In this document: in pieces, positions 16,852-32,028 of the stretch
Layout of the letters: each line of letters begins with the position of its first letter
Numbering within the stretch: the stretch's first letter is position 1
Assembly: GCA_023248095.1 (NCBI GenBank)
Contig: JAHFFF010000001.1
Span: forward strand, 1 to 44,019
Direction: 5' to 3'
DNA: 44,019 nucleotides
Source: Candidatus Omnitrophota bacterium
GTDB lineage: Bacteria > Omnitrophota > Gorgyraeia > 1-14-0-20-64-10
The notes under the pieces: model-generated
Databases searched by the model: none
The model's input: the letters and a program-made list of their open reading frames with translations, nothing else
Told to the model about the DNA's origin: nothing
Translations under genes and position numbers: made by a program

Positions 16852-17826
16852 CTAACATGCAGCGGGTGGTTTGTCAACGAGACGCGAGGGATCATCGGTT
16901 TTCCCATTAAAGAACCGAAGGACGTTCCTTGCGCAAGAGAACTCCATGGCAGAACGGGAAGCGCGCGTCAGGGTGGATACGTGTGGCGTGCACAAAACCT
17001 GAGGCAAATCGCGCAGCCTTCCTTGATACGGTTCCTCTTCAAAGACATCCAGTGCTGCCGCAGAGAGCCGCCCTGAGGAGAGGGCCTCTTCCAACCCCCG
17101 CTCATCCACCAGGTAACCTCGGGCCGTGTTGACCAACCGACTGCCCGGTTTCATGGAAAATAACTCCGCGTGTCCTAAGAGGGGTCCCTCCTCTTTCGAG
17201 CGGCTGGCATGAAGGGAAACCAGATCGGACTCAGCCAGAAGTTTCCCCAGATCGCAGAGGGTGATTCCCGCGGGAACCTCCTCGGGGTGCAGCCTCGGAT
17301 CCGCTGCCAGGATTTTGGGGCCGAAGATCTGAAGGTAGCGCCCCACTGCCTGCCCGATTCGACCAAAACCCACCAGCCCAATGGTCCATTCTGAAAGAAG
17401 GAACCCGGTCTGCTTGCGCCATTTCCCCTGCCCCATGTCCCGCAGGTGTTGAGGAAAGTGGCGTGCCAGCGCCAAGATCATTCCTACCGTCATCTGGGCC
17501 ACCGGCTCCACCACTTCCTCGGCGGTGGTAAAAACGGCGACCTTGAGCTTCTGTGCAGTCTCCAGATCGATGGAATCGGTGCCCACGCCGCAGCGGCTGA
17601 TCACCTTCAATCGGGAAAGCGAGCGGAGGAGTTGCGCGTCGTATGGCTCCACGCCGGCCAAAATCGCGTCTGCCTCCTGCAGCAGTGGAAGCATCTCCTC
17701 CCGTTTCAGGCGTCTGCCTAACTCATTTCGGCGGACGTCAAATCCGGCCTCCTGCAGGAGGCGCAGTGGCCGATCGTCTGATTCACAGAACTGTTGAAGC
17801 GCTACAAAGACCGTGGGGCGATTCAT
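16852..17826 (-). CDS. D-isomer-specific 2-hydroxyacid dehydrogenase (phosphoglycerate dehydrogenase-like)
   Basis: IGLVGFGRIGQAVG NAD motif; NTARG; EEPY...CTPHVS catalytic His region. Confidence 0.85.
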   Translation of the reverse strand: MNRPTVFVALQQFCESDDRPLRLLQEAGFDVRRNELGRRLKREEMLPLLQEADAILAGVEPYDAQLLRSLSRLKVISRCGVGTDSIDLETAQKLKVAVFTTAEEVVEPVAQMTVGMILALARHFPQHLRDMGQGKWRKQTGFLLSEWTIGLVGFGRIGQAVGRYLQIFGPKILAADPRLHPEEVPAGITLCDLGKLLAESDLVSLHASRSKEEGPLLGHAELFSMKPGSRLVNTARGYLVDERGLEEALSSGRLSAAALDVFEEEPYQGRLRDLPQVLCTPHVSTLTRASRSAMEFSCARNVLRFFNGKTDDPSRLVDKPPAAC

Positions 17827-18599
17827 CTCAACAGCTGTTGAAGCACTTCCCGCTGAAGGGAATCTCTCTCCAGGAGGGACTCCACTTGCTTCACCTCGTG
17901 GGGCAGATTGATCCCCGGATAGCCTCGAGTAAAGAGCACGCCTTGAAGGATGAAATCGTGCTCCAGGATACGGGACTGATCGACCGATTCACGAACCTCC
18001 ATCGGGGTTCGAGGCAACCTCGAGTATCGCTGGAGGAATTCTTTTTGGTAACCCAGGATTCCGAGCACCTTGCGGACCGGTTCCATGCTGTTGCGGATGC
18101 CATTGGAGAAACAGGAGATATTCCGGGAACAGAACAGGATGCGCCCGGAAACAGAAACAACGCATTTGACGACAGAGTCGTCGGCCAGTTCATCCGGGCC
18201 ATCGAGTGCGGCTACGGCGTTCCAGGCCGGCAGGGAGGGCCTTTCCTTGATGGCGCGCACCATCTTCTCCAAGTCGGCGGGTAGGGCCAGGATCTCATCT
18301 CCCTGAACGTTTACGATGTGAGTGCACTCTAGGGATTCGGCTGCTTCCGCGACGCGGTCGGTCGCAGCCGGGTGAGTCGGCGAAGTCATGATGACCTTAC
18401 CCCCCGCGTCACGGATGACTTGGGCAATCTCCGGATCGCACGTTGCCACCACGACGTCATGAAATCCTTCGCACAACAGGGCCCTGCGGCGGACGTGTTC
18501 CACCATGGGAAGCCCCCGGATCTTGAGCAGCGGTTTGCCCGGGAATCGGCTGGAGGCCATGCGCACGGGAATCACCGCAACGATTCGGACCGCGTCCAT
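17823..18599 (-). CDS. KdsB/NeuA-family cytidylyltransferase (CMP-ulosonic acid synthetase-like)
   Basis: VAVIPVRMASSRFPGKPL, ATDRV (GTDR-like) and VNVQGDEI (VNVQGDEP-like) are KdsB-family signatures. ATGA overlap at 17823-17826. Confidence 0.75.
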   Translation of the reverse strand: MDAVRIVAVIPVRMASSRFPGKPLLKIRGLPMVEHVRRRALLCEGFHDVVVATCDPEIAQVIRDAGGKVIMTSPTHPAATDRVAEAAESLECTHIVNVQGDEILALPADLEKMVRAIKERPSLPAWNAVAALDGPDELADDSVVKCVVSVSGRILFCSRNISCFSNGIRNSMEPVRKVLGILGYQKEFLQRYSRLPRTPMEVRESVDQSRILEHDFILQGVLFTRGYPGINLPHEVKQVESLLERDSLQREVLQQLLR

Positions 18600-18605
18600 G
18601 GGGCG

Positions 18606-19370
18606 TTACTGGGGCAATGTGCCGCAGTCCACGTTGATGCACTGCCCTGTTACCGCGGAAGAGGCGGGTGATGCCAGGAAGTACACCACCTCAGCGACCT
18701 CTTGGGCCGTTGGCAATCGACCCAGAGCGGTCTGAGCCGCCGCAAAGGTGGCCAAATACGTTTCCACCGTTTGTCCATGCGCCGGTGCGGCAGGCTCGGA
18801 GAGAGAGGCCAGGATCTGCTCCGTCTCCACGTAGACTGGGCAAACCGCGTTCACTCGAATTCCGCGAGGCCCCAATTCCTTGGCCAGCGCCTGTGTGATG
18901 CCGTTGACCGCGAACTTCGCGGCGCAGTAGGCGCTGTTATTCGCCGATCCCCGTTTCCCGGCCAGGGAGGAGATGTTGACGATGCTCCCGCCGGGTTTCA
19001 TCACGGCCGCCATAGCGGCGCATCCCCACAGGGTTCCCAACACAGGGGTCTCGATGACCTCTGATACGAACGACTCATCAATGGCATCAATCGGACGCCA
19101 CCGGGACACCCCCGCGCAGTTGACGAAGAGATCGGGGGTCCCGAACTGCTTCAGAACCTCCTCCACGAAATGTCGCACCTGGGTTCGGACCCGGACATCG
19201 ACGGTAAAGTGCACGATCCCCTCCGGCAACGAAGGGTCCCTGGGCGAACGGGAGCAGATCACTACCCGGTCGCCTCTCGCGTGGAAGAGCTCGGCGATGG
19301 AGCGACCGATCCCACGCGTCGCCCCGGTTAGGGCAACCACCCGCTGGGCCGGAGGGGATGGGAGGCTCAT
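18606..19370 (-). CDS. Short-chain dehydrogenase/reductase (FabG-like)
   Basis: VVALTGATRGIGRSIA, NCAG, catalytic YCAAKFAV. Confidence 0.8.
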   Translation of the reverse strand: MSLPSPPAQRVVALTGATRGIGRSIAELFHARGDRVVICSRSPRDPSLPEGIVHFTVDVRVRTQVRHFVEEVLKQFGTPDLFVNCAGVSRWRPIDAIDESFVSEVIETPVLGTLWGCAAMAAVMKPGGSIVNISSLAGKRGSANNSAYCAAKFAVNGITQALAKELGPRGIRVNAVCPVYVETEQILASLSEPAAPAHGQTVETYLATFAAAQTALGRLPTAQEVAEVVYFLASPASSAVTGQCINVDCGTLPQ

Positions 19371-20998
19371 CGAACCTTTCGAAAGGAGCCGTCAGGATCC
19401 TCCAATCGGTAATGCAACACCCCTACCCCCTCCGAGGTGAGGAGGAAATCAAGAGGGTGCTCGGTGAGGGTGAATGTCGCTTGGGGATCGGTCACCGGCG
19501 TCCCTTCGAACCGGTACGGTTTCGGATCGATCCCCAGATGTTTCAGAAGGGTTGGCAGGACATCGATCTGACGGAGAACAGGACGGAACACCCTGCCCTC
19601 TTTCTGTCCCGGCCGTTTGAGCGCGAAGAAAACGCTCACCAAATCCGGGGGGGCCGGGATCGCCTCTTCCCCCTTGACATTTCGCGCACCGGCGTCGTAT
19701 CCGGTGTCCGATGTCACCACGATGAGAGCGCGGTCGTAGATCCCTTCCTGCTTTAGGAATTCCAGGAAAGAACCCAGCTCTCGATCAAAGATGGCTAGGT
19801 TCTTCCGAGCGCCTTCTAGCTCCTTCGAATACTTCTCGGCGGAAAACTGCTTGAAACCGGAATACTTCACATCGGGACCATCGCTGATCCAGTTGTGCAT
19901 GATGTATAAATTGGGCGCCGTGCCTTCCTTTTTCAAGACCTCCTTGAGGGCCTCGAACTGCTTCCTACCGGAAACGTGTTGAAGCTGCTCTCCAGGTTTC
20001 AGGGACGCCGACTCCCGGGCCCACAGGTCGAACCACGGGTTGAAATGCCAGCCCAGCAGGGTGAGCCTGACTTCCAGCGGGTCGGGGATGATCGGCAAGA
20101 GATAGGTCTTGTACCAGCCGACAATGATGTCCAAGCCCCGGTGGGTCTTGCCAACGGCGCGTAGGCAGATGTTACGCCTCGGATTGCAATAGTCGGTCAG
20201 GATGTCCAGGACTAGGAAGACCCGACGCTTGGCCCCCACGATGTCCCTGAGATTCGGGTATCGTGTCCAGTTCCGTTCACTGGAGAGGAGCCGTCCGGAG
20301 TACAGCGTTTTGAGCGAGTAGACCGTCGCCGTGCAGTTCGCGTAGGTCCGGGGATAATAATCGGCTCCCGACACAAAGCGGGTCAGGTTCGGGAATCGAT
20401 CCAGGATTTTCCCCTGCCCATCCGTCAGGTAGGAGTTGCACAACTTCTCAAAGGTGAAGAAGAAGACGGGGGCTGTCCCCTCAGAGCTGGTCGGAAGGAA
20501 GGTCGGTTGATAGGAACCCCCTTGCCCGGAGGGGGCCGCCTGGAAGGCGAAGGTGAGAAAGACCGCCAGGCTGAGGACGGCACAGCTCTTCAGGATGCGA
20601 TCGATGCCCTTCCGGAAGCGATACAGGGAGACCGCCAGCAGCAGGAAGATGCCCAGGAGGGCGAACTTCCGCCACTCGGCTTTCAGAAAATAGAACTGCA
20701 GGATATGAAAGTTGAGCTGCATGGAAAAGAGGAAGCTGACAACCACAGAAAAAAAGAGGGAACTCAGCCGTTCGGAGATGGCAGCGAACGCCCAAAAGAA
20801 AAGGCCCACCAACAGGGGGATCCCCACAAAGGTCAGGACACAGAAGAGGCAGAACGTCGGCCAATCCCAGCTTCCCAGGCTCAAGGACTGCGGATCCTCG
20901 AGAATCATCGTTGCCAATGGAATTTGGAACAGCAAAGTGACGGCTCCCCACGCCGAAAAGAAGAGACCCCACTCAGTAGATTTTTTGAAGGATATCAC
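19367..20998 (-). CDS. Membrane-anchored alkaline-phosphatase/sulfatase-fold transferase (LtaS/EptA/OpgB-like architecture)
   Basis: About 5 N-terminal TM helices, then a soluble domain with VFFFTFEKL..., ANCTATVYSLKTLYSGR at the position of the sulfatase signature, and ALIVVTSDTGY (SDHG-like). GTG start at 20998; ATGA overlap at its 3' end (19367-19370). Confidence 0.65.
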   Translation of the reverse strand: MISFKKSTEWGLFFSAWGAVTLLFQIPLATMILEDPQSLSLGSWDWPTFCLFCVLTFVGIPLLVGLFFWAFAAISERLSSLFFSVVVSFLFSMQLNFHILQFYFLKAEWRKFALLGIFLLLAVSLYRFRKGIDRILKSCAVLSLAVFLTFAFQAAPSGQGGSYQPTFLPTSSEGTAPVFFFTFEKLCNSYLTDGQGKILDRFPNLTRFVSGADYYPRTYANCTATVYSLKTLYSGRLLSSERNWTRYPNLRDIVGAKRRVFLVLDILTDYCNPRRNICLRAVGKTHRGLDIIVGWYKTYLLPIIPDPLEVRLTLLGWHFNPWFDLWARESASLKPGEQLQHVSGRKQFEALKEVLKKEGTAPNLYIMHNWISDGPDVKYSGFKQFSAEKYSKELEGARKNLAIFDRELGSFLEFLKQEGIYDRALIVVTSDTGYDAGARNVKGEEAIPAPPDLVSVFFALKRPGQKEGRVFRPVLRQIDVLPTLLKHLGIDPKPYRFEGTPVTDPQATFTLTEHPLDFLLTSEGVGVLHYRLEDPDGSFRKVR

Positions 20999-22100
20999 GT
21001 AACACCTCCTGTGTGACTTCCCGAGGGTTGTTCACTACCCGGTCCGACCGGAACCCGTTTTCGATGACGTTATTGATCCCCTGCTGGTCAAGGCCAAGTT
21101 TCCGAAGGGACCGTTCCAAACCGGCTTCATCCATCAACCCCTCTACCCGGCGAGCGGCCTCCTCCCAGGAGGAGATACCGAGGGTCTTCAGGAGGTGGGC
21201 CCCTCGCTCGGGTTCTAAGACAGGGCCGTTGTACCGTATAAAGGAAGGCAGCGTGAGGGCGCAGGCATGCCCATGGGGGATCTCGTAGAAGGTGGTGAGC
21301 GGATAGGAAACCGCATGGACTGCCGTGGTGCGGGTCTGCGTGATCGCCAGCCCCGCTTCAGTACTGGCCAGGGACATCGCAAACCGGGCCTCCCGTTGCG
21401 AGGGTTCTCTCAGAACCGTGGGAAGATTTTCAAGAATGAGTGCGATGGCGCGTAGGGAGTGGGTTTCAGAAAACGGTGTATGGTGAACAGACCAAAAGGA
21501 TTCAATGGCCTGGGAAAGGGCATCCAATCCACTGCAAGCGGTCACGTATTTTGGCATGGAGTAGGTCAGCAAGGGATCGATTAAGGCGATCTCTGGAAAA
21601 AGCCAGGGATGGGTCAGGCTAATCTTCTGGTGGGACCGAGTCTGAAGCGAGGCGTAGGGGGTGACTTCACTTCCAGTTCCCGCCGTTGTGGGAACGGCGA
21701 TCAAGGGCAAACCTCGGTGTTGGAACTCCCTGCGTTTCTCCACGTAATCTTCCAAGGCGACGTCCTCTTGCGTCAGCAGGATCCGAATGGCCTTTGCACA
21801 GTCCAGTACGCTTCCGCCTCCAATGCCCACCACCAAGTCGAATTTCCTTCCCCGCAGAGTCCGCCACATCTCTTGAATGAAGGTCACACTGGGGTTGTGC
21901 TCCACAGGATCCGATTCCTCCAGGCAGAACCCGCCCAGCCCTTCTTTGAGACGCCGATGTCCCACGGAACTCCGGAAGGAGGACTTGCCTAGAAGGAGGA
22001 GGACCTTCTTGGGCCGGAAAGAGGCGACCATCTCGGGCAGCCGATCTAGCGCGCCGTCGGCGATGATTCGCTGGGTAGGATTCCAGTACCCCCAATTCAT
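20973..22100 (-). CDS. Group III iron-containing alcohol dehydrogenase; by context a phosphonoacetaldehyde reductase candidate (PhpC/FomC/Pdh-like)
   Basis: VVGIGGGSVLDCAKAI and PTTAGTGSEVT are Fe-ADH family motifs. ATG 22100 lies 5 nt after the PepM stop. Confidence 0.75.
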   Translation of the reverse strand: MNWGYWNPTQRIIADGALDRLPEMVASFRPKKVLLLLGKSSFRSSVGHRRLKEGLGGFCLEESDPVEHNPSVTFIQEMWRTLRGRKFDLVVGIGGGSVLDCAKAIRILLTQEDVALEDYVEKRREFQHRGLPLIAVPTTAGTGSEVTPYASLQTRSHQKISLTHPWLFPEIALIDPLLTYSMPKYVTACSGLDALSQAIESFWSVHHTPFSETHSLRAIALILENLPTVLREPSQREARFAMSLASTEAGLAITQTRTTAVHAVSYPLTTFYEIPHGHACALTLPSFIRYNGPVLEPERGAHLLKTLGISSWEEAARRVEGLMDEAGLERSLRKLGLDQQGINNVIENGFRSDRVVNNPREVTQEVLRDILQKIY

Positions 22101-22105
22101 CTGAT

Positions 22106-23818
22106 CTAGGCCGCTGAAGGAGCTTGGACTCCAGCTAGGGTCGAGGCCGACCTTCGGAAATGGGCCTCGGCGCGTTCGACATCGGAACGGGAATGAACCT
22201 CAGACCAACCGTGCTCAATCTCCATACCGAACACTTGAAAATTACGATCCAACAGGTACCGGAGCAAATCGGTGAAGTCAGCTTCCGCTACACTCGAGGC
22301 CTCATAGAAGGGTTTGCCTTGATACTCACCCTGAGCTTGCTCCCAGGCACGCTTTAAGACATCCAACCCCTTTTCTCTGAGGAAGGCCATCCCGATAAAT
22401 TCATGGGTCGGTTGGGCTCCCAACAGGCGTTTTCCAATGTGCCGAATGGGTTTGTAGAGGTCGAGTTCCAAACGCCGCGGGGAACCTGGCGGTAACGCCG
22501 GATCATCGACGGCGACCAAATCAAGCGCCTTCTTACGCGTGGGGAGGGTCTGGTAAGCCCGGTCGATCACCAGCGTGATGGGGTGCGGGCTTCCCAGGAG
22601 CCGGGCCAGGATTTGCCGGTCGAAGAGTATGTCGGAGTAGAGGATAACGGTCTTCCCTTTGAGTTGCTCGCCGGCAAACAGGATGGAATGGGCGCAGTGC
22701 GTCTTGCGGTAATCTGGGTTGTACAAGACACGGGCCCCCTCCGCTCGGAGCTTCTCATGCAGATGCCCTCCCACCACAACAACATCGGTGATCCCCACCG
22801 AGTGAAGGGCGGTCAATTGCCGTTCCAGGAGAGTTTGCCCGCCCACCTCCAGCATGCACAAGGGTTTGTCCTTTAACAGTTCCTTCAAATCCGGTTGGAA
22901 CTGATGATCCCGTGCGGCAGGGATCACCGCTTGCACGTTGGCCCCATCGGAGAATCTCCTCTCATCCTCCCGCATAGCACTCATCCCTTGCAACTCGAAC
23001 ACCTCCCGGAGAGAGGCGACCTTCTCCTCAATATCCGCCGTCGTTCCCATCCTTTGAATGGTTTCCAGCGTCGTCTCGATGGCGCGAATGGAGGCCCGGA
23101 GCCCATGGTTGGCGTAGATCACCATCTTAAAGCCCCCTCTCTCCAGCTCGGCTGCCGTGACCCGATAGTAGGTCGTGGGGATGGCGACCAAGGGAATGTT
23201 CCGATCCCACCGCCTTGCAAAGGAAAATACCTCTTCGGGCTCGGACGCCTTCGAGTGAATGACAATCCCATCCGCTCCTGCCTCCGCATAGGCGGCGGCG
23301 CGCCTCAACGCCTCCTCCATTCCCCATCCCGCGATCAGGGCCTCCACTCGGGCGAATACCATCAGATGAGGATTGCGCTGAGCCTCCTTGGCGGCCCGGA
23401 TCCTCCCTACGAATTCCTCCACCGAGGCCAACGCCTGCCGTCCCGGGATGAAGCTGTTCACCTTCGGGAACTGTTTGTCTTCAATCACAATGGCCGCCAG
23501 CCCCGCGGCCTCGTATTTCTTGACCATGTGCTTGACGTTGGAAGCGTTCCCGTATCCCGTATCACAGTCGCAGATGACTGGCAATGCAGTCGCCTCGTTG
23601 ATGGCCCGCGCCGCTTCCAGGTTCTCCGTCATGGTCAGGATGTTGGCATCGGGTAGGCCGTAGGCGGTGGAGATCTCCAGGCCACTGGCCCAAACCCCAT
23701 CGAAGCCGGAACGCTCAATGAGCTTTGCCCCCAGCCCATTGTGGGCCCCCACCACCTTCAGGATCCCCTTGGACCGGAAGGCCTCCCGCATCCGTGCGGC
23801 CTTGTCGCTCAAGGGCAA
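22106..23818 (-). CDS. pepM: Phosphoenolpyruvate mutase (N-terminal ~290 aa) fused to a divergent LicC/PntC-like nucleotidyltransferase domain (C-terminal ~275 aa)
   Basis: GAHNGLGAKL, CDCDTGYG and the PepM-diagnostic EDKQFPKVNS (nt 23453-23482) are present. The C-terminal domain is paralogous to the NTase domain of 24497..25708 (EFIGM, GKPF, GW.E blocks). Start is TTG 23818 with GGAGGAGG just upstream; an alternative ATG lies at 23791. Confidence 0.9.
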   Translation of the reverse strand: MPLSDKAARMREAFRSKGILKVVGAHNGLGAKLIERSGFDGVWASGLEISTAYGLPDANILTMTENLEAARAINEATALPVICDCDTGYGNASNVKHMVKKYEAAGLAAIVIEDKQFPKVNSFIPGRQALASVEEFVGRIRAAKEAQRNPHLMVFARVEALIAGWGMEEALRRAAAYAEAGADGIVIHSKASEPEEVFSFARRWDRNIPLVAIPTTYYRVTAAELERGGFKMVIYANHGLRASIRAIETTLETIQRMGTTADIEEKVASLREVFELQGMSAMREDERRFSDGANVQAVIPAARDHQFQPDLKELLKDKPLCMLEVGGQTLLERQLTALHSVGITDVVVVGGHLHEKLRAEGARVLYNPDYRKTHCAHSILFAGEQLKGKTVILYSDILFDRQILARLLGSPHPITLVIDRAYQTLPTRKKALDLVAVDDPALPPGSPRRLELDLYKPIRHIGKRLLGAQPTHEFIGMAFLREKGLDVLKRAWEQAQGEYQGKPFYEASSVAEADFTDLLRYLLDRNFQVFGMEIEHGWSEVHSRSDVERAEAHFRRSASTLAGVQAPSAA

Positions 23819-24537
23819 GCCTCCTCCGATGATTTTGGATAGTAATCCTGCTCGTCCGAGACAATGCGGCTAAGGTTTCTCCCGCCCAGTAGGGCCAACT
23901 CCTGACGCGCATCACCCGTCAGGTGCTGCGCGAACGTAATGGCCAGGATCCTGCCTGGGTTCTTTGCATCCGGGGAATAAAATCCGTGTGGGACAAAACC
24001 TGGGATAAGCCAGGAGTCTCCCTTCTCAAAGACCTCCTCCCAAACCTTCCCCTCCCACTCCCAAAGGTAGGCTACAGGGCCCCCATCCAGGACCTGGGTG
24101 TACTGATGGAAGAAATGGCCCCGATTGAGCACCACCTCTTCTCTTCGATGAAGATGAAGGAGCAATTCCACCGGCTTGATGTTGGGTAAAACCGGTGTCA
24201 TCACCCTTTCCCAGTAGGTGTACTGCAGCCGACCTGCCCTTTCCTGGTCAAACCGCCGGGCGGAGCGGCCGCGGAGGAATTTCATCCCCCGATCCAAGTC
24301 ATTCTCCAGAGGCAGCAGGTCCCGGACGCTCACGGAAAATTGCCTGGCCAGCAGCTCCAATTCCCCCCAGGTCGGTTGACCCTCTCCCCGTTCCAAGAAA
24401 CTCAGGCGTTCACTGGAGATCCCCGTATCGCGGGAGACGGTTTCTAAGGAATGTTTGACCTCGTTGCGCCAGGCATGGATGAGGCTACCGTAGTTTTTAA
24501 ACGCGGCGGTTGGAACGGACGTTTGAAGTTGCGACAT
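23809..24537 (-). CDS. HTH(XRE-like)+cupin protein, HppE/HEPD/MPnS-superfamily-like non-haem iron enzyme candidate
   Basis: 242 aa. N-terminal XRE-type HTH (HSLETVSRDTGISSERLSFLERGE). Cupin motif 1 NRGHFFHQ (N138, H141, Q145) and cupin motif 2 GDSWLIPGFVPHGF (H184). ATG 24537 is preceded by AAGGGAG 8 nt upstream. Confidence 0.65.
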   Translation of the reverse strand: MSQLQTSVPTAAFKNYGSLIHAWRNEVKHSLETVSRDTGISSERLSFLERGEGQPTWGELELLARQFSVSVRDLLPLENDLDRGMKFLRGRSARRFDQERAGRLQYTYWERVMTPVLPNIKPVELLLHLHRREEVVLNRGHFFHQYTQVLDGGPVAYLWEWEGKVWEEVFEKGDSWLIPGFVPHGFYSPDAKNPGRILAITFAQHLTGDARQELALLGGRNLSRIVSDEQDYYPKSSEEACP

Positions 24538-25708
24538 GCAGAGGACTCCCTTTTTGTTGGAACACCGTGACAGCCTTCTTGAAGTCTTCGATGGTGTCGA
24601 TCTCTTTCCAGCCGGACCCGATGATCTCGCAATGGATGGGGACTCCCAGATCCGCCATTTCCTGGAAGAGATCGGTGAGATACGCCTTTTGAAACTGGTC
24701 GGCCCTCTGGAAGGGCCCGCCGTCGTAAAGAGCCTTGGCCCGATGGTAATGTCGCCGCAGGATCTCGCAACCCCTACGGGTCAGCTTGCACATCCCAATG
24801 AATTCCCCGTGCACCTCTTCCTTCTCGGCGGCAATCTTTCCGATCTTGATCACCTCGTTGTTGCTGTTAAAGATGACGTTCTCCGCCTCTTCAATCGGGT
24901 GGTCCTTCCGGCCAAGATAATAGTCCTTCCAGTCGATATCCACCCCGATCGCGATGTCCTTCTCGCATCGAAGAAGCCTCTTGACCACCGCCTCTTCATA
25001 CCAGATGTCCGTATAGGAGATGATAACCTCCCCATCCAGCTCTTCCTCTGCGCAGAAGAGGGAGGCCAGCATGTTGGTGGTCTGGGGGGTTGGGTTCTCA
25101 TAGTATCTTACCCCGGGGTTGTTGATCTTCTCCGCCTTATATCCCCGAACTACGGAGATCTCGCCGATTCTGCAGGAGCGAAGGGTTTCGAGCTGGGTCT
25201 GTAAGAGGGTCTTCCCGTTGAGAACGATGGCCATGCACTTCGGAAAATCCTCTGTCAGGGGCCTTAAGCGTGAACCTAGCCCAGCTGCCAGCAGAACAGC
25301 CTTCACCTCAACGGAGCCAATCCTCTTGGTCAAGTCTCGAATGCGCTGGGCTGAGGCCTGGTGCTGTTGGAGGGCCCTGAGAAGATTCACCGATTCGGGA
25401 TGGGCCTTCACGATGCCGGGCACATCCGGCGGGATTCGGTCAGGTTCTAGGCCGGCAAGATCAAACAGGTCCTCCTCCGCCGCGCCCAAGGCAGCGGCCA
25501 GCTTCTGAATGACTCCCTTCGAGGGTGGTTTGCGGTGCAGGCTTTCAATATCGCTCAAATAGGAGCTTGTAACGCCCACCCGTTGGGCTAGCCCTCTTAA
25601 GGAAAGGCCCGTCTTCTGGCGGAGGGTTTTGATCTCCACCCCAAAGGGCTTCCTAGAGGAGTTTCGAGTCTTTGATCCGTTGGTGTTTCGGGGGGTATCC
25701 CTGCGCAA
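24497..25708 (-). CDS. XRE-type HTH domain fused to a LicC/PntC-like nucleotidyltransferase (canonical G-loop)
   Basis: HTH: IKTLRQKTGLSLRGLAQRVGVTSSYLSDIE. NTase: KAVLLAAGLGSRLRPLTEDFPKCM (nt 25259-25294). The track start at 25708 is TTG. GTG 25639 (VEIKTLRQ...), with AGGAAG upstream, is an equally plausible start. Confidence 0.75.
   Translation of the reverse strand: MRRDTPRNTNGSKTRNSSRKPFGVEIKTLRQKTGLSLRGLAQRVGVTSSYLSDIESLHRKPPSKGVIQKLAAALGAAEEDLFDLAGLEPDRIPPDVPGIVKAHPESVNLLRALQQHQASAQRIRDLTKRIGSVEVKAVLLAAGLGSRLRPLTEDFPKCMAIVLNGKTLLQTQLETLRSCRIGEISVVRGYKAEKINNPGVRYYENPTPQTTNMLASLFCAEEELDGEVIISYTDIWYEEAVVKRLLRCEKDIAIGVDIDWKDYYLGRKDHPIEEAENVIFNSNNEVIKIGKIAAEKEEVHGEFIGMCKLTRRGCEILRRHYHRAKALYDGGPFQRADQFQKAYLTDLFQEMADLGVPIHCEIIGSGWKEIDTIEDFKKAVTVFQQKGSPLHVATSNVRSNRRV
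24546..24550 (-). promoter_or_regulatory. Shine-Dalgarno GGGAG for the HTH-cupin gene, embedded in the 3' end of the upstream NTase gene
   Basis: Plus-strand CTCCC at 24546-24550, 8 nt upstream of ATG 24537. Confidence 0.5.
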
Positions 25709-25715
25709 TGTTCAC

Positions 25716-25729
25716 CTATCAGCTATCAG
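25716..25729. repeat. Tandem direct 7-mer CTATCAG CTATCAG (plus strand) inside the largest non-coding gap of the window
   Basis: Read directly at 25716-25722 and 25723-25729. It lies between the TagF-like stop (25749) and either candidate start of the HTH-NTase gene (25708 or 25639). Confidence 0.5.
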
Positions 25730-25748
25730 TTTACTAGGAGGCAGCTTA

Positions 25749-26873
25749 TCAAACTGTGAGACACAGTTCAAGGAGGAACTGGCCCCCGACCCTTCCCGCC
25801 GCTCCCGGGTGGTAAACCGATTGAGTGCGTTCCTCAAGGATTCGGTCCCGATAGGCGCTTTGATTCTCCAGCAGGTCGCGGACCTCGCTGCCCATTTGAC
25901 CGCTTCTCTCCACAAGGACGGTTTTCCCGATCCGGTCCCGAAGGCGAACCTCCAGGGGGATGATCCCAAGCTCCTCATAGCGAGGGTTGTGGACCTTACG
26001 CGGCACCTCCATAAACAGGACTGGCCTTTCGGTCCCGAAGGCGTATTCCAAGGCGATGCCTGACCAGTCGGTGATCAGGACATCGGATTCGAGAAGGGTT
26101 TGATCCGTCAGCGGTCCGAAATCCCACTTGACCTTGGAATCCTCAGGCCATTTCTGCCTGAGTTGGGCCAACCTCTTGGGATAACGCTTGACCCACTCCG
26201 GGTGGGGCCGAATGACCACGGTAAAATCATCCTTCACCAGGGCGCGGACCACTTCGGAGACACAGGATTCCAGGATGTTGTCCGCCCCCCAGGAGGGGGC
26301 GATGAGAACCCTCCTACCAGCTGGGGCCAAGGAGTCCGATCGCATCTGAAGAAGGCGGTCTAGGGAGGGATAGCCGACCTCCAGGAGCTGCTTGGCAGGG
26401 GTCTGATAGAGCTGCTCGGAACGGCGCAGTTCCGACAGGTGGTGAGGGCCGACGCAGAAGATGACGTCGTAGTGATCGAACGCTCCGAAGCGATAAATCA
26501 TGTGTGTGCTGACCATGGCGTGGAAAATGTAGACGTGCCGGGTACCCCAGACCGATCGGCGGATACTGTAGCGATTCAAATCCGGCAGGGTCATCACGAG
26601 AACCTTCGCATCCAAAAAGAGGATGACGAAGGGGAGCAGGTGTTTGAAGTAGAAACTCCTCAGGCGATCGGGTGCCTGCGAAAGGATGGGGTCGTCCGGC
26701 TCCGAGGTGATGTAGCAAATCGTCAAAGAGGGCTGCCTCAAGAGCTCGCGGATGAATCCCTCGAAATAGGGGAGGTAGCCCCTGCCCTCCGTATAAAAGA
26801 CGATCTGTCTTTCTTCTTTGCGCAGGCCAACGAAGCGTTTCAGATCAACGCATTCGCGAAGAAAGGAGCGCAT
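25749..26873 (-). CDS. TagB/TagF-family CDP-alcohol phosphotransferase (Glyphos_transf-like)
   Basis: Start set to ATG 26873 (MRSFLRE...), 13 nt after the upstream small-ORF stop. VLIAPSWG, VVIRPHP and VLITDWSGIALEYAF correspond to the TagF YAPTWR / HP / LITDYSS blocks. Confidence 0.75.
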   Translation of the reverse strand: MRSFLRECVDLKRFVGLRKEERQIVFYTEGRGYLPYFEGFIRELLRQPSLTICYITSEPDDPILSQAPDRLRSFYFKHLLPFVILFLDAKVLVMTLPDLNRYSIRRSVWGTRHVYIFHAMVSTHMIYRFGAFDHYDVIFCVGPHHLSELRRSEQLYQTPAKQLLEVGYPSLDRLLQMRSDSLAPAGRRVLIAPSWGADNILESCVSEVVRALVKDDFTVVIRPHPEWVKRYPKRLAQLRQKWPEDSKVKWDFGPLTDQTLLESDVLITDWSGIALEYAFGTERPVLFMEVPRKVHNPRYEELGIIPLEVRLRDRIGKTVLVERSGQMGSEVRDLLENQSAYRDRILEERTQSVYHPGAAGRVGGQFLLELCLTV

Positions 26874-26886
26874 CCTCCCGCACTCT

Positions 26887-27030
26887 CTACTTCTTTCGAG
26901 TCCAAAAGGATTTAATCGAGTACAAGATCGATCGGATTCCGATGAAGATCGACCCAATCCCGACAACGATCAGCTGAATGAGAAGACCGCCCGTTCCTGG
27001 GTTCATGTAGGCCAGTGGCATCTGGATCAT
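26887..27030 (-). CDS. Small single-TM peptide (47 aa), function unknown
   Basis: MIQMPLAYMNPGTGGLLIQLIVVGIGSIFIGIRSILYSIKSFWTRKK. GGAGG (27038-27042) lies 7 nt upstream of ATG 27030, and the ORF sits between two tightly packed genes. It has a hydrophobic core and a basic C-terminus. Confidence 0.45.
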   Translation of the reverse strand: MIQMPLAYMNPGTGGLLIQLIVVGIGSIFIGIRSILYSIKSFWTRKK

Positions 27031-27037
27031 GGTTTTT

Positions 27038-27042
27038 CCTCC
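27038..27042 (-). promoter_or_regulatory. Shine-Dalgarno GGAGG for the 47-aa small ORF
   Basis: Plus-strand CCTCC at 27038-27042, 7 nt upstream of ATG 27030. It overlaps the HAD gene stop codon. Confidence 0.5.
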
Positions 27043-27713
27043 TAGGGTTGAATCCAAAAGGCATAATCTGGAATCCAAAACAACGATTTCTTGCCGGAGT
27101 TATTGGCGGCGTCCCCGATGCCGATGAACTGGCAACCGGCTTGCTCCGCAGCCTGGGCATCCTCCTCCTGATCGCCGAAGAAGATCAGCTCCTCCTTTGA
27201 AAGCAGGAATTCGGAGCGAAGGCCCTGCAGCCATTGGGCCTTATGGACGGGGGCCCCTTGGATGAAGCGGAAATAAGCGGCCCATCCCCGCTGGGTTAAG
27301 ATCTGCGTGAGGACCTCCTGGGGAGTGGAGGAAAGCAGCCCGATGCAATGAGTCCGAGAAACGGAACGAAGGAATTCTTCGGCATAGGGGATCCCGGATG
27401 CGGCAACAATCTTCTGCGTCGTAGCAGCCTCGAAACGATTGTGAAGCTCCTGCTCGACCTGCGGGGTCAGGGGGCGTTCGAGGATTCGATCATAGACGTA
27501 CCGAAACTTCTCCCGTCGAGGTGTGTGATGGTTCGCCCAGCAGTAAGCGAGGATTTCCTGTTTGCGCTCCGGGAAGTTGGCGAAACACACCTCGAAGGCC
27601 GCTCGCTTGATGGAGTTGGAATCCACCAGGGTTCCGTCAAAGTCGAAGATCAGTGCGCGGGCAGCTTGAACCAGTTCCCGTACCGTTGTTTGCTCAGCGG
27701 GACCAGATTTCAT
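27042..27713 (-). CDS. HAD-superfamily phosphatase (PGP/beta-PGM-like subfamily)
   Basis: LIFDFDGTLVDSN (motif I, DxDGT), ...GLLSSTP... (motif II), ...FFGDQEEDAQAA (motif IV). Confidence 0.8.
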   Translation of the reverse strand: MKSGPAEQTTVRELVQAARALIFDFDGTLVDSNSIKRAAFEVCFANFPERKQEILAYCWANHHTPRREKFRYVYDRILERPLTPQVEQELHNRFEAATTQKIVAASGIPYAEEFLRSVSRTHCIGLLSSTPQEVLTQILTQRGWAAYFRFIQGAPVHKAQWLQGLRSEFLLSKEELIFFGDQEEDAQAAEQAGCQFIGIGDAANNSGKKSLFWIPDYAFWIQP

Positions 27714-28452
27714 TCGACTTCCTACCCGTGGGATCTGCCCAGACTCGCCGGAGCCCCGCCTGCTCTAACAACAACGCGCATCGCCGCCGGAGCTCGGGTT
27801 GGGATAATTCAAGGATCAAGGAGCGGAGGGTGGCCGACCGCAAGGTTTCCGAAGCCCCTTCCAGAATGGCCGGCTCGGTTCCATCCACATCGATCTTCAA
27901 ACAATTCGGAAGGCGCTGCGTCTCGTGGCAGAACCGGTCCAGCGTGGTGACGGCAATCCCTTCCCGGCCGATGACCGCAGCCTTATGAGCCGTCTGGAGG
28001 AGGGAGGTGGGAGATTCCGTATGCAGAGCCGCTCCCGGAGTCCAATCTTGGATGTGCAGTCGGCTCAAGCCCACCCGGTTCCCGAGGGCCACGGAATAAA
28101 CCTCTACCCGATCCTGGAGGGCGTTGTGCAACAGGTTCTGTCGGAGGAGAAAGAGATTGGAATATTCCGGTTCAAAGGCAATCACCTGAGCCCTCGGGTG
28201 ACGCAGGGCCGCATAGATGGAATAGGAGCCGATGTTGGCGCCGATGTCGAAAAAGAGGTCTTCCGCCTGCACCCAACGGTCGATCCAGTCGAGAGTCTCC
28301 GGCTCCTTTACATTGTAGGTACGCCAACGGTAGTACGTCACGGGATTGTCCGATTGAAGGGTGAAGGTCAGGCCGCGGGCGAAAACCTTCCGCCGGGGAG
28401 CGAAGGCCGACAGGGCGGCCCAGCGTAGGCGCGACAAACGGTTCCTAACCAC
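27694..28452 (-). CDS. FkbM-family methyltransferase
   Basis: FFDIGANIGSYSIYAA is the FkbM signature. The track ORF (to 28881) has a 143-aa N-terminal extension that fully overlaps the upstream aldolase. In-frame GTG 28452 gives a 252-aa protein overlapping the aldolase stop by 8 nt. Confidence 0.65.
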   Translation of the reverse strand: MVRNRLSRLRWAALSAFAPRRKVFARGLTFTLQSDNPVTYYRWRTYNVKEPETLDWIDRWVQAEDLFFDIGANIGSYSIYAALRHPRAQVIAFEPEYSNLFLLRQNLLHNALQDRVEVYSVALGNRVGLSRLHIQDWTPGAALHTESPTSLLQTAHKAAVIGREGIAVTTLDRFCHETQRLPNCLKIDVDGTEPAILEGASETLRSATLRSLILELSQPELRRRCALLLEQAGLRRVWADPTGRKSNEIWSR

Positions 28453-31308: not shown

Positions 31309-32028
31309 CTAGGTCTTCATCCGAAGCCTCGGCCCCGACAGCCGCGCGCCGTCACGGAGGAACATCTGGACCGTCTCCTTGCTGTAGGGATGCACCAGCA
31401 TTCCCTCTAATAACTCAGGCAGCGCCGTGACGATATCGGCGCCTGCTTCAAACCATTGGATGATGTTGAGCACCTCGCGGGTCGACCCTACGATGATCTT
31501 CGCCGAGCTTCCGAAGCTGTCCAGAAGCTGACGGAGGCGACGGATCTCACCGACCGAATCATAGCCCATGTTGTTCACCCGGCCACCGAACAGGGAAACG
31601 TACGTGGCTCCGGCCATGGCCGCCAGGAGGCACTGCTGCGCGCTCATCATGGCGGTGACGTTGACGCGGATGTCGTGGCTGGCCTCCAGCTCGTGAACGA
31701 TCCGCAGATTCTCCGTGCCGCCTTCCGGGCCATGAATCGGAATCTTGACGTTCACGTTCTTTCCCCAACCTGCAAACATCTGCGCCTGCTCGATCATCTC
31801 TCGTGGGTCATTGGAAATGACCTCCAAAGAGACTGGCAGCGGATCGATCAGTTGCAGGATCTCCCTGCAGTGCTTCTCGATGCCCGACCAGCCTCCACCC
31901 ACCCCGTCTTTGACCAGGATCGTCGGATTGGTCGTGACCCCCCGAACGATTCCCAGGGTGTGGTACTTCTGAATCTCATCGAGCTTCCCGGTGTCCAGGA
32001 AGATGCCCGTCAGATTTCCAATGTTCAT
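31309..32028 (-). CDS. Transaldolase-family protein, TalC/fructose-6-phosphate-aldolase-like (short form)
   Basis: Start ATG 32028 (MNIGNLTGIFLDTG...), an ATGA overlap. GVTTNPTIL and NVNVKIP (Schiff-base Lys context); about 239 aa, the size of FSA/TalC. Confidence 0.75.
   Translation of the reverse strand: MNIGNLTGIFLDTGKLDEIQKYHTLGIVRGVTTNPTILVKDGVGGGWSGIEKHCREILQLIDPLPVSLEVISNDPREMIEQAQMFAGWGKNVNVKIPIHGPEGGTENLRIVHELEASHDIRVNVTAMMSAQQCLLAAMAGATYVSLFGGRVNNMGYDSVGEIRRLRQLLDSFGSSAKIIVGSTREVLNIIQWFEAGADIVTALPELLEGMLVHPYSKETVQMFLRDGARLSGPRLRMKT

What the first reader, a model, noticed from the sequence alone, without database searches (positions are those of the whole stretch)
19367..26873. Phosphonate (C-P) module embedded in a surface-glycan super-operon, with a gene set unlike characterised pathways
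Seen in sequence: six consecutive, nearly gapless, co-directional genes. In transcription order they are a TagF-like phosphotransferase, an HTH-nucleotidyltransferase, the HppE-like cupin, a PepM-nucleotidyltransferase fusion, an Fe-ADH and an LtaS/sulfatase-fold membrane transferase. The PepM call rests on EDKQFPKVNS (23453-23482), the EDK-x5-NS motif that distinguishes true PEP mutases from other isocitrate-lyase-superfamily members, together with CDCDTGYG. Established knowledge: PepM is the entry step to almost all phosphonates. Cytidylyl activation of phosphonates is widespread (Fom1, PntC, FrbH, PhpF). As I recall, the Nitrosopumilus methylphosphonate cluster also pairs its phosphonate genes with nucleotidyltransferase and sulfatase homologues, which was interpreted as attachment to exopolysaccharide. 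Inference: this locus makes a small phosphonate, activates it as a CMP conjugate and installs it on the glycan built by the surrounding ~35 genes. If the cupin is MPnS-like, the organism could be a source of methylphosphonate, a precursor of aerobic methane.
Basis: partly seen in the sequence, partly recalled or inferred. Interest (0 to 1): 0.8.

Follow-up and report, generated by a model that had tools for sequence, protein, structure and literature searches.

The report
Phosphonate glycan module with half-size MPnS-like oxygenase
A bacterial sugar-coat gene cluster carries genes for making a carbon-phosphorus compound, including an unannotated half-length relative of the enzyme that makes methylphosphonate (a precursor of methane in oxygenated water), but it lacks one normally essential pathway gene.

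Summary
The PEP mutase call holds: it passes the curated TIGR02320 cut-off, matches PDB 5unc at 1e-113, and EDKQFPKVNS lies at 23453-23482.

The "HppE-like cupin" is closer to methylphosphonate synthase (MPnS) and 2-hydroxyethylphosphonate (HEP) dioxygenase (HEPD), at E 1e-37 and 1e-34, than to HppE (1e-6 to 1e-8). It is a 242-aa, single-repeat version of those about 450-aa two-repeat enzymes. The family has more than 160 members, named only "XRE regulator" or "hypothetical".

The 2-His-1-Gln iron site, the four phosphonate-binding residues and the MPnS marker Ile184 are invariant. The second marker, Phe162, is Tyr here and Phe in 8 of 56 aligned members and 12 of 44 locus sequences.

A LicC/PntC-type nucleotidyltransferase precedes the cupin in every related locus with upstream sequence. 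Most loci read cupin, PepM::NTase, Ppd, Fe-ADH.

This window and two Planctomycetia relatives have cleanly lost Ppd (phosphonopyruvate decarboxylase). Their genes are still under purifying selection, so Ppd is probably supplied in trans.

A TagF-fold transferase and an LtaS/EptA-like membrane enzyme are the likely installers.

Verdict: a phosphonoglycan module that is a new variant of a known kind. The product is probably methylphosphonate, with hydroxymethylphosphonate as the main alternative.

The parts
25749..26873 (-). TagF-fold phosphotransferase (374 aa from the ATG at 26873; the ORF could extend to 26966). Candidate enzyme that transfers the phosphonyl group from a CMP-phosphonate to a glycan or lipid-linked acceptor.
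   Evidence: Pfam Glyphos_transf scores 39 bits against a cut-off of 22.1. The AF2 model has pLDDT 92.9 and its best PDB fold match is TagF 3l7k/3l7l at E 6e-12. There are 1962 homologues, and the named ones are called 'CDP-glycerol glycerophosphotransferase family'. A 49%-identical homologue sits directly upstream of PepM::NTase-Ppd-NTase-FeADH in L023.
26887..27030 (-). Conserved 47-aa single-transmembrane peptide immediately upstream of the TagF-like gene.
   Evidence: It translates to MIQMPLAYMNPGTGGLLIQLIVVGIGSIFIGIRSILYSIKSFWTRKK. Orthologues are present in L017 and L026, and it is called as a gene in L001, L002, L017 and L026.
24497..25708 (-). XRE-type HTH fused to a LicC/PntC-type nucleotidyltransferase (start uncertain: 25708 TTG or 25639 GTG). 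Candidate phosphonate cytidylyltransferase paired with the oxygenase.
   Evidence: Pfam finds HTH_31 plus NTP_transf_3. The best PDB match is LicC 1jyk at 8e-14. A homologous NTase lies immediately upstream of the cupin in every related locus that has upstream sequence. It is 44% identical (2e-66) to the NTase domain of P0141, a natural NTase::two-repeat MPnS-signature fusion. Its stop overlaps the cupin start by 41 nt.
23809..24537 (-). Single-repeat (HTH plus cupin, 242 aa) member of the MPnS/HEPD Fe(II) oxygenase family. Predicted to cleave 2-hydroxyethylphosphonate to a C1 phosphonate.
   Evidence: PDB sequence matches: MPnS 6b9s 1.9e-37, S. albus HEPD (SaHEPD) 6b9r 6.9e-34, HppE 1e-6 to 8e-9. 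The protein aligns to each half of the two-repeat enzymes. Across 56 homologues K28, R100, Y106, Y108, N138, H141, Q145, I178 and H184 are invariant. The top Foldseek hit is MPnS. No NCBIfam model hits it.
22106..23818 (-). PEP mutase (about residues 1-295) fused to an NTP_transf_3 nucleotidyltransferase (about residues 300-570).
   Evidence: TIGR02320 PEP_mutase scores 323.8 bits against a cut-off of 319.55, whereas phosphonopyruvate hydrolase scores 274.8 against 374.4. PDB 5unc PepM matches at 1e-113. EDKQFPKVNS lies at 23453-23482. The NTase half is 29% identical to the stand-alone NTase.
20973..22100 (-). PhpC-type iron alcohol dehydrogenase (phosphonoacetaldehyde to 2-hydroxyethylphosphonate).
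   Evidence: Pfam finds Fe-ADH plus ADH_Fe_C. The best NCBIfam hit is TIGR03405 Phn_Fe-ADH at 257 bits, below its cut-off of 423.7. Orthologues (48-76% identity) follow Ppd in sister loci.
22101..22105 (.). Five-base junction where sister loci carry a roughly 370-aa thiamine-diphosphate (TPP) phosphonopyruvate decarboxylase gene. A clean Ppd deletion.
   Evidence: L025 is syntenic with the window over about 20 kb and has a TPP_enzyme_N/C gene between PepM::NTase and Fe-ADH. 13 loci have Ppd at this position, and 3 lack it (window, L006, L017). No TPP enzyme lies in the window or on contig positions 4783-64241.
19367..20998 (-). Membrane-anchored alkaline-phosphatase-superfamily enzyme (LtaS/EptA-like). 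Candidate transferase or remodelling esterase acting outside the cytoplasm on the phosphonate decoration.
   Evidence: At least three hydrophobic segments lie in residues 45-154. Pfam Sulfatase scores 33 bits. The best PDB matches are LtaS at 4e-7 and phosphonate monoester hydrolase at 5e-5. Orthologues in L006, L017 and L025 conserve FLTFEK, T.YSLKTLY.GR (a Thr-nucleophile-type motif), MHN and DTG.D.

Best explanation
This is a module that decorates a cell-surface glycan with a phosphonate. Each step is marked as shown or inferred.

1. The PepM domain converts PEP to phosphonopyruvate. The enzyme identity is shown; the activity is inferred.
2. A phosphonopyruvate decarboxylase (Ppd) encoded elsewhere in the genome makes phosphonoacetaldehyde. 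This is inferred: Ppd sits at this exact position in most sister loci but has been cleanly deleted here.
3. The PhpC-type Fe-ADH reduces phosphonoacetaldehyde to 2-hydroxyethylphosphonate (HEP). This is inferred from family and context.
4. The 242-aa single-repeat MPnS/HEPD-family Fe(II) oxygenase probably works as a homo-oligomer that mimics the two-repeat enzymes. It binds free HEP through the conserved Lys/Arg/Tyr/Asn and the His-Gln-His iron site and cleaves C1-C2 with O2. The product is most likely methylphosphonate plus CO2, and less likely hydroxymethylphosphonate plus formate. The residues are shown; the product is inferred.
5. The LicC/PntC-type NTase that always precedes the oxygenase, and/or the PepM-fused NTase, makes the CMP-phosphonate. 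This is inferred.
6. The TagF-fold enzyme transfers the phosphonyl group to a hydroxyl of the glycan or its lipid-linked precursor and releases CMP. The LtaS/EptA-like membrane enzyme then relocates or trims it outside the cytoplasm. This is inferred.
For: - PepM identity.
- Cupin identity: matches to MPnS 1.9e-37 and SaHEPD 6.9e-34, to each repeat.
- Conserved residues: the equivalents of MPnS K28, R102, Y110, N145, H148, Q152, I184 and H190 are invariant in 56 of 56 homologues.
- Published markers (PMC9381506 Suppl. Table S2; PMC11978286): MPnS is H148, Q152, F162, I/V184, H190. HEPD is A/Q152, I/Y162, E/G184.
- Marker covariation: in two-repeat relatives F pairs with I and Y pairs with G. 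This family always has I, with Y in 32 and F in 12 locus sequences. The F-bearing members include Nitrospinia and TARA Oceans marine contigs and meet every published marker.
- Context: NTase-cupin-PepM::NTase-Ppd-FeADH occurs in 13 loci, and an NTase sits upstream in every locus with upstream sequence.
- Gene-fusion link: P0141 is an NTase fused to a two-repeat protein carrying the MPnS markers.
- CMP logic: NUDIX and cytidylate kinase follow Fe-ADH in L018 and L022.
- TagF fold and TagF-like genes next to PepM clusters.
- LtaS-like motifs.
- Selection: dN/dS is 0.09-0.40 with saturated dS against the two other Ppd-less loci.
Against: - No Ppd lies in the window or on about 59 kb of its contig, so the pathway as encoded here is incomplete. 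Supply in trans is an assumption.
- The window protein has Tyr, not Phe, at the MPnS F162 position. That is the class II HEPD residue, so hydroxymethylphosphonate cannot be excluded.
- The protein has only one repeat, and no single-repeat member has been characterised. Its nearest characterised single-repeat relative, HppE, does different chemistry.
- The roles of the two NTases cannot be told apart from sequence.
- The invariant NTase-cupin pairing could mean the oxygenase acts on CMP-HEP rather than free HEP.
- The Fe-ADH is below the TIGR03405 cut-off.
- There is no biochemical evidence for any step.
Confidence: 0.6

Rival explanations
1. The pathway is the same, but the oxygenase works as an HEPD. 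HEP is cleaved to hydroxymethylphosphonate (HMP) plus formate, and HMP (or a derivative) is what is cytidylylated and attached.
For: The window protein and 48 of 56 aligned homologues have Tyr at the position of SaHEPD Y163 / MPnS F162. Tyr is the class II HEPD residue in the published marker table. SaHEPD scores almost as well as MPnS (6.9e-34 against 1.9e-37). The family branches outside both characterised clades in the neighbour-joining tree.
Against: Position 184 is Ile in every member (56 of 56 proteins; 44 of 44 locus sequences), never the Gly or Glu of HEPDs. In two-repeat relatives Ile184 goes with the MPnS markers. Tyr and Phe interchange within this one orthologous family in the same gene context, which argues that the hydroxyl is not decisive here.
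Confidence: 0.2
2. The oxygenase acts on the CMP ester rather than the free acid. One NTase makes CMP-HEP (as Fom1 does), the single-repeat enzyme converts it to CMP-methylphosphonate (or another CMP-phosphonate), and that is the direct donor for the TagF-like enzyme. Alternatively it performs a different oxidation of HEP, such as 1-hydroxylation.
For: The NTase-cupin pair is the most invariant part of the cassette, often with overlapping stop and start codons. NTase::MPnS-type fusions exist. Fom1 cytidylylates HEP before further tailoring (PMC6697681). The family is a separate deep branch and has lost the second repeat, which could open the active site.
Against: All four residues that bind the free phosphonate dianion in MPnS/HEPD are invariant. 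That fits a free phosphonate better than a bulky CMP ester. No structural evidence for a nucleotide pocket was obtained.
Confidence: 0.12
3. The module is a decaying or rewired remnant. With Ppd lost it no longer makes a phosphonate, and the remaining genes do something else or nothing. The HTH-cupin protein would then be an XRE-type regulator, as it is annotated.
For: Ppd is absent from the window and about 59 kb of the contig. Public annotation calls the family 'XRE family transcriptional regulator'. Pfam sees only HTH domains above threshold.
Against: All six genes are intact in three diverged Ppd-less loci, with dN/dS 0.09-0.40 and saturated dS. PepM keeps every catalytic motif. The iron ligands and substrate-binding residues of the cupin are invariant. 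Other genomes also split the pathway: L016, L022, L036 and L043 have NTase-cupin-FeADH with no PepM or Ppd nearby. Dispersed genes are therefore normal for this system.
Confidence: 0.08

Closest known systems
Methylphosphonate synthase MPnS (Nitrosopumilus maritimus; PDB 6B9S/6B9T) and its gene cluster
   Same: It is the best sequence and fold match. It shares the 2-His-1-Gln iron triad, Ile184 and the Lys/Arg/Tyr/Asn phosphonate-binding residues. The context is also shared: PepM, Fe-ADH, a nucleotidyltransferase and a sulfatase-fold gene, read as decoration of an exopolysaccharide (PMC9381506).
   Different: It has one HTH-cupin repeat (242 aa) instead of two (about 450 aa). It has Tyr instead of Phe162 in this window, though Phe occurs in part of the family. 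It is only 26-27% identical in the Foldseek structural alignments and branches outside the MPnS/HEPD-II clade. Ppd is missing from this locus. The hosts are bacterial (Planctomycetia, Omnitrophota, Nitrospinia), many from groundwater.
Class II 2-hydroxyethylphosphonate dioxygenase (Streptomyces albus HEPD, PDB 6B9R)
   Same: It has a His-Gln-His site, Tyr at the 162/163 position, the same predicted substrate, and nearly the same similarity score.
   Different: HEPD has Gly184 where this family invariably has Ile. HEPD has two repeats. Known HEPDs serve small-molecule antibiotic pathways, not glycan decoration.
HppE / Psf4, (S)-2-hydroxypropylphosphonate epoxidase (PDB 1ZZ6, 5U55)
   Same: It has the same single HTH-plus-cupin architecture and size class, is a phosphonate-specific Fe(II) enzyme, and gives Foldseek hits of similar strength.
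   Different: Sequence similarity is much weaker (1e-6 to 8e-9). HppE uses Glu as the third ligand where this protein has Gln. No Fom3-type methyltransferase is conserved in these loci to supply 2-hydroxypropylphosphonate (HPP).
Phosphonyl-tailoring (Pnt) pathway: Ppm::PntC fusions and LicC-like cytidylyltransferases (Rice et al. 2019, PMC6697681); Fom1
   Same: It has PepM fused to a PF12804 NTase plus a second stand-alone NTase. LicC is the best PDB match. It sits in a cell-surface glycan context.
   Different: Characterised PntCs activate 2-aminoethylphosphonate (AEP), and no AEP transaminase is present here. The transferase is TagF-fold rather than LicD-like. Many stand-alone NTases in this family carry an XRE-type HTH.
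TagF/TagB CDP-glycerol glycerophosphotransferases, and LtaS/EptA alkaline-phosphatase-superfamily transferases
   Same: The transferase has the TagF fold and a Pfam match. The membrane enzyme has an N-terminal membrane anchor plus a Thr-type AP-superfamily domain.
   Different: The donor is predicted to be a CMP-phosphonate, not CDP-glycerol. The second metal-ligand pair reads D-T rather than LtaS D-H. Neither activity has been tested.

Membership tests
PEP mutase (PepM/Ppm) | EDK-x5-NS active-site motif that separates PepM from other isocitrate-lyase-superfamily enzymes | tested here: met
   EDKQFPKVNS lies at residues 113-122, window 23453-23482. The motif definition comes from PMC6697681 and 10.1101/2020.11.04.368217.
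PEP mutase (PepM/Ppm) | Scores above the curated equivalog cut-off of TIGR02320, and better than the hydrolase, lyase and carboxy-PEP mutase models | tested here: met
   TIGR02320 scores 323.8 against 319.55. Phosphonopyruvate hydrolase scores 274.8 against 374.4, methylisocitrate lyase (PrpB) 189, and carboxy-PEP mutase 114. The top PDB hit is PepM 5unc at 1e-113.
PEP mutase (PepM/Ppm) | Coupled to an enzyme that pulls the unfavourable equilibrium (usually Ppd) in the same neighbourhood | tested here: not met
   No TPP enzyme lies in the window or on contig positions 4783-64241. One is present in 13 sister loci.
Methylphosphonate synthase (MPnS) | 2-His-1-Gln iron triad (H148, Q152, H190) | tested here: met
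   H141, Q145 and H184 align to it and are invariant in 56 of 56. The marker list comes from PMC9381506 Suppl. Table S2.
Methylphosphonate synthase (MPnS) | Ile/Val at position 184 next to the Gln ligand | tested here: met
   I178 has the same spacing from GDS and from the second His as MPnS I184. It is invariant in 56 of 56 proteins and 44 of 44 locus sequences.
Methylphosphonate synthase (MPnS) | Phe at position 162 | tested here: not met
   The window protein has Y157. The family has Y in 48 and F in 8 of 56 aligned members, and Y in 32 and F in 12 locus sequences. The HMMER alignment to MPnS instead puts Ala156 at this position.
Methylphosphonate synthase (MPnS) | Two tandem HTH-cupin repeats in one chain of about 450 aa | tested here: not met
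   The protein is 242 aa with one repeat that matches each half of 6b9s. All close homologues are 226-250 aa, apart from one 214-aa entry that covers 87% of the query.
Methylphosphonate synthase (MPnS) | Converts 2-HEP to methylphosphonate plus CO2 | not testable with these tools
   This needs an enzyme assay.
HEPD class II | Q152, Y162 and G184 | tested here: not met
   Gln and Tyr are present, but position 184 is Ile, never Gly.
HppE epoxidase | 2-His-1-Glu triad (H138, E142, H180) and a supply of 2-HPP | tested here: not met
   Gln aligns with E142. E-values are only 1e-6 to 8e-9. No conserved Fom3-like B12 radical-SAM gene is present, and the window has none.
PntC/LicC-type phosphonate cytidylyltransferase | PF12804 fold, LicC-like, encoded next to or fused to PepM | tested here: met
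   frequency data from PMC6697681. Substrate and nucleotide specificity were not tested.
TagF-type phosphotransferase | PF04464 above the gathering score and a TagF-like GT-B fold | tested here: met
   Pfam scores 39 bits against 22.1. The AF2 model has pLDDT 92.9 and its top PDB fold hit is TagF at 6e-12. Two invariant His residues (H118, H224 in alignment A2) were not mapped onto the TagF catalytic His residues.
LtaS/EptA-type alkaline-phosphatase-superfamily transferase | N-terminal membrane domain plus an extracytoplasmic domain with a Thr nucleophile and metal ligands | tested here: inconclusive
   Transmembrane segments and the Sulfatase domain are present. A conserved T.YSLKTLY.GR motif and E and D ligands are present in four orthologues, but the residue after the Asp ligand is Thr rather than the LtaS His. 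The N-terminal half of the catalytic domain is not matched by Pfam.

The most novel reading that the evidence does not exclude
The 242-aa protein is a genuine minimal methylphosphonate synthase: a single-repeat, homo-oligomeric form of MPnS. The family is currently annotated as XRE regulators and has no curated model. It would make Planctomycetota, Omnitrophota, Nitrospinota and others unrecognised producers of methylphosphonate-decorated glycans in groundwater, freshwater and the ocean. MPnS surveys that require the Phe/Ile marker pair, as two published surveys do, would reject the Tyr-bearing majority of this family.
Probability: 0.45. Interest if true: 0.85.

Novelty: new variant of a known kind. 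Interest (0 to 1): 0.68.

Why it matters
Methylphosphonate is the accepted precursor of methane made in oxygenated water. Its known source enzyme, MPnS, is rare and is counted only in its two-repeat form with the Phe/Ile markers.

A 2025 groundwater study found widespread C-P lyase expression but detected MPnS in only three samples, and it left the source of methylphosphonate open (PMC11978286).

The family found here is conserved at 60-87% identity. It always sits in HEP-forming phosphonate cassettes inside glycan clusters. It occurs in groundwater Omnitrophota, Planctomycetia, marine Nitrospinia and TARA Oceans contigs, and part of it carries every published MPnS marker.

If it makes methylphosphonate, inventories of methane-precursor producers need revising, and a half-size enzyme becomes available for studying how the product is chosen. 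If it makes hydroxymethylphosphonate instead, it would be a single-repeat HEPD-type enzyme devoted to glycan decoration, unlike the characterised HEPDs of antibiotic pathways.

The clean loss of Ppd while the rest stays under selection also shows that phosphonate pathways can be split across a genome. This matters for genome-mining rules that require pepM and ppd to be adjacent.

Tried and rejected
1. HppE identity for the cupin. Rejected: Gln replaces the Glu ligand, the match is much weaker than to MPnS/HEPD, and no conserved HPP-forming methyltransferase is present.
2. A hidden Ppd. Pfam on all roughly 39 window ORFs, plus gene calls over contig positions 4783-64241, found no TPP enzyme.
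3. The HpcH/HpaI aldolase plus HAD hydrolase as a substitute for Ppd. They co-occur with the Ppd-less loci. Rejected because L025 has HpcH and the same synteny and still has Ppd. They belong to the sugar-building part of the cluster.
4. The PGDH-like D-2-hydroxyacid dehydrogenase (16852-17826) as a VlpB-like phosphonopyruvate reductase that bypasses Ppd. It is also present in the Ppd-containing L025 and absent within 10 kb in the Ppd-less L017, so it is not a replacement. A side branch remains untested.
5. Rejected.
6. The HTH-cupin as a transcription factor. Rejected on the invariant catalytic residues.
7. Homology between the NTase's HTH and the cupin's HTH, as a possible pseudo-second repeat. 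BLASTP found nothing.
8. The C-x-P-x-R motif in the sulfatase-like protein as a formylglycine site. It lies about 45 residues downstream of the nucleophile-position motif and is probably structural.
9. Literature searches for a described single-repeat MPnS/HEPD found none in the held library. Born et al. 2017 could not be read, and a search for the SaHEPD mutant names found nothing relevant. The statement that Gln-adjacent residues switch the product rests on its abstract as I recall it and on the secondary sources.
10. The neighbour-joining tree has no bootstrap support. The placement of the single-repeat clades is indicative only.

Full report
**Observation**

The six genes exist as described, all on the minus strand:
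- 25749-26873, TagF-like
- 24497-25708, HTH-NTase (nucleotidyltransferase)
- 23809-24537, HTH-cupin
- 22106-23818, PepM::NTase
- 20973-22100, Fe-ADH
- 19367-20998, membrane sulfatase-fold protein

Their junctions are +40, -41, -10, +5 and -26 nt. Pfam confirms every domain call.

The whole 44-kb window, and positions 4783-64241 of its 65-kb source contig (ENA ERZ27276474 k141_5624430), are transcribed in one direction. They are dominated by glycosyltransferases, methyltransferases and sugar-modifying enzymes. The nearest relatives are Planctomycetia metagenome-assembled genomes.

**PEP mutase**

The N-terminal domain passes the curated equivalog cut-off of TIGR02320 (323.8 against 319.55 bits). 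It fails those of phosphonopyruvate hydrolase, methylisocitrate lyase and carboxy-PEP mutase. Its best solved relative is a PEP mutase (5unc, 1e-113), and the catalytic motifs align.

The fusion to a PF12804 nucleotidyltransferase is not unusual. Rice et al. report it for 33% of Ppm enzymes, and they also describe clusters with an additional stand-alone NTase (PMC6697681).

**The cupin is the main result**

Against solved structures it matches MPnS (6b9s, 1.9e-37) and S. albus HEPD (SaHEPD, 6b9r, 6.9e-34) far better than HppE (1e-6 to 8e-9). It aligns separately to each half of those two-repeat proteins. So it is a single HTH-plus-cupin repeat of the MPnS/HEPD family.

An AF2 model (pLDDT 79) finds MPnS, HppE and HEPD as top fold matches. 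No NCBIfam model hits it, and Pfam sees only the HTH above threshold.

More than 160 proteins at 60-87% identity exist. All but one of the 120 listed are 226-250 aa; the exception is a 214-aa entry that covers 87% of the query. They are named only 'XRE family transcriptional regulator' or 'hypothetical'. In a library clustered at 50% identity the family collapses to a single representative. The next hit is a 447-aa two-repeat protein whose two halves are 44% and 36% identical to it. Other single-repeat clades also exist (P0123, P0133, P0169).

**Catalytic residues**

In 56 aligned members the equivalents of MPnS K28, R102, Y110, N145, H148, Q152, I184 and H190 are invariant. Published markers are as follows (PMC9381506 Suppl. 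Table S2; used the same way in PMC11978286):

| Enzyme | 148 | 152 | 162 | 184 | 190 |
|---|---|---|---|---|---|
| MPnS | H | Q | F | I/V | H |
| HEPD | H | A/Q | I/Y | E/G | H |

Among two-repeat relatives F goes with I and Y goes with G. This family always has Ile at 184. At 162 it has Tyr in 48 of 56 aligned members (this window included) and Phe in 8 of 56. Counted over loci, that is Y in 32 and F in 12 sequences. The Phe forms include a Nitrospinia genome and TARA Oceans contigs.

Part of the family therefore meets every published MPnS marker. The window protein meets all but one. Tyr and Phe interchange inside one orthologous family in one gene context, and Ile is the bulky residue that (from my recollection of Born et al. 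2017) holds the Gln ligand in place. I therefore favour methylphosphonate as the product (about 0.45-0.55), with hydroxymethylphosphonate as the main alternative.

A neighbour-joining tree puts the single-repeat clades with the catalytic N-repeats but outside the characterised MPnS/HEPD-II clade (no bootstrap support).

**Context elsewhere**

I examined 38 non-redundant loci that encode a family member.
- A LicC/PntC-type NTase lies immediately upstream of the cupin in every locus that has upstream sequence.
- 13 loci read cupin, PepM::NTase, Ppd, usually followed by Fe-ADH where sequence continues.
- 4 loci read NTase-cupin-FeADH with no PepM or Ppd adjacent; in the two with 10-kb flanks (L016, L022) none lies within 10 kb.
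- Only the window and its two closest relatives (L006, L017; 76-78% identical cupins) read cupin, PepM::NTase, Fe-ADH with no Ppd.

L025 is syntenic with the window over about 20 kb. Its order is SIS, transaldolase, methyltransferase, GT, HpcH ... TagF-like, NTase, cupin, PepM::NTase, Ppd, Fe-ADH, sulfatase-like, SDRs, KdsB-like, 2-hydroxyacid dehydrogenase. It carries Ppd exactly where the window has a 5-bp junction. So Ppd was cleanly lost in the window's lineage.

Against the two other Ppd-less loci, the genes that could be scored have dN/dS of 0.09-0.40 with saturated dS. For the cupin, dS was too saturated to give a ratio. The module is therefore still in use. The simplest reading is a Ppd encoded elsewhere, as the split loci show is possible. 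This could not be checked, because whole-genome scans were exhausted.

**Activation and transfer**

- The NTases are LicC-like (1jyk, 8e-14).
- A natural fusion (P0141, 702 aa) joins an NTase 44% identical to the window's stand-alone NTase to a two-repeat protein with the MPnS markers. This gene-fusion evidence ties the NTase to the oxygenase step.
- NUDIX and cytidylate kinase follow Fe-ADH in L018 and L022, which fits CMP release and recycling.
- The TagF-like protein gives a high-confidence GT-B model whose best PDB match is TagF with CDP-glycerol.
- A 49%-identical homologue heads a PepM::NTase-Ppd-NTase-FeADH cluster that lacks the cupin (L023). The subfamily therefore appears to handle CMP-phosphonates in general.
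- The sulfatase-fold protein has N-terminal membrane segments. Its best PDB matches are LtaS and phosphonate monoester hydrolase. It carries a conserved Thr-type nucleophile motif rather than a positioned formylglycine motif.
- The exact donor, the acceptor and the division of labour between the two NTases and the two transferases are inference.

**Comparison and novelty**

In logic, this is the Nitrosopumilus-type methylphosphonate exopolysaccharide pathway combined with the bacterial Pnt (nucleotidyl activation) scheme. As a member, it fails two defining MPnS features (two repeats; Phe162 in this window). It fails the HEPD feature Gly/Glu184, and it fails the HppE Glu ligand. It is best filed as a new single-repeat branch of the MPnS/HEPD family, in a phosphonoglycan module that has lost its cis Ppd.

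I found no description of such single-repeat enzymes in the held literature. That library is incomplete.

**Verdict**

It is a new variant of a known kind. Interest is moderately high because of the link to sources of methane precursors in groundwater and the ocean, and because a simple enzyme assay would settle the question.

Noticed in passing
window 26887-27030 (-); L017 7521-7661; L026 7465-7608: A conserved 46-47-aa single-transmembrane peptide (YMNPGxGxLxxQL...RKK) is encoded directly upstream of the TagF-like gene. It may anchor the TagF-like enzyme to the membrane. JGI labels some TagF-like homologues 'YidC/Oxa1 family insertase', for no evident reason.
   Followed up: partly
window 16852-19370 (-): An SDR, a KdsB-like CMP-ulosonate cytidylyltransferase (passes the NF003952 cut-off) and a PGDH-like D-2-hydroxyacid dehydrogenase follow the sulfatase-like gene. 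The same trio follows it in L025. The dehydrogenase is of the VlpB type and could reduce phosphonopyruvate to phosphonolactate as a side branch. This was not tested.
   Followed up: partly
window 20174-20188 (-), residues 271-275 of the sulfatase-like protein: A YC.P.R..C motif (CNPRR here) is conserved in all four orthologues. It resembles the sulfatase formylglycine signature, but it lies about 45 residues downstream of the conserved Thr motif that occupies the nucleophile position.
   Followed up: partly
P0141 (702 aa); P0180 and P0231 (about 708-710 aa): P0141 is a natural fusion of a LicC-like NTase to a two-repeat MPnS-signature oxygenase. P0180 and P0231 are probably the same kind, judged only from where they match. 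P0121 (447 aa) is a two-repeat protein with both halves close to the single-repeat family and a C-repeat that lacks the second His. It could be an independent duplication or an evolutionary intermediate.
   Followed up: partly
L018 14730-16012; L022 11861-13088: NUDIX hydrolase, cytidylate kinase and a conserved roughly 290-aa protein with no Pfam match follow Fe-ADH in two loci from different contigs. This suggests CMP recycling and possibly proofreading of CMP-phosphonates.
   Followed up: no
L024 8001-10440 (Acidobacteriota): A TagF-like gene and an HTH-NTase form an isolated pair with no PepM nearby. They sit next to an MFS transporter, a phosphate-selective porin and a metallophosphatase. 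The pair may be a general activate-and-transfer unit that is used with other head groups.
   Followed up: no
window 27694-28881 (-) versus 28445-29248 (-): The longest ORF of the FkbM methyltransferase (395 aa) overlaps the HpcH aldolase gene by more than 400 nt. The public gene call uses a downstream start (247 aa), which removes the overlap.
   Followed up: yes
window 28445-29248, 27042-27713, 31309-32702 (-): An HpcH/HpaI aldolase, a HAD phosphatase, a transaldolase/FSA and a SIS-domain isomerase recur with the cluster. All four families appear on the window's contig, L025 lacks the HAD, and L017 and L026 show only the aldolase and HAD within the sequence fetched. Together with the KdsB-like enzyme they suggest synthesis of an unusual 3-deoxy-ulosonic acid for the same glycan.
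   Followed up: no
P0122, P0124, P0127, P0148 (about 450 aa): A separate two-repeat clade has Gly, Ser or Ala at position 152 and Ala at position 184 (GHFQH/GHFQD ... GDSYFARG). That fits neither the MPnS nor the HEPD markers, so its function is unknown.
   Followed up: no
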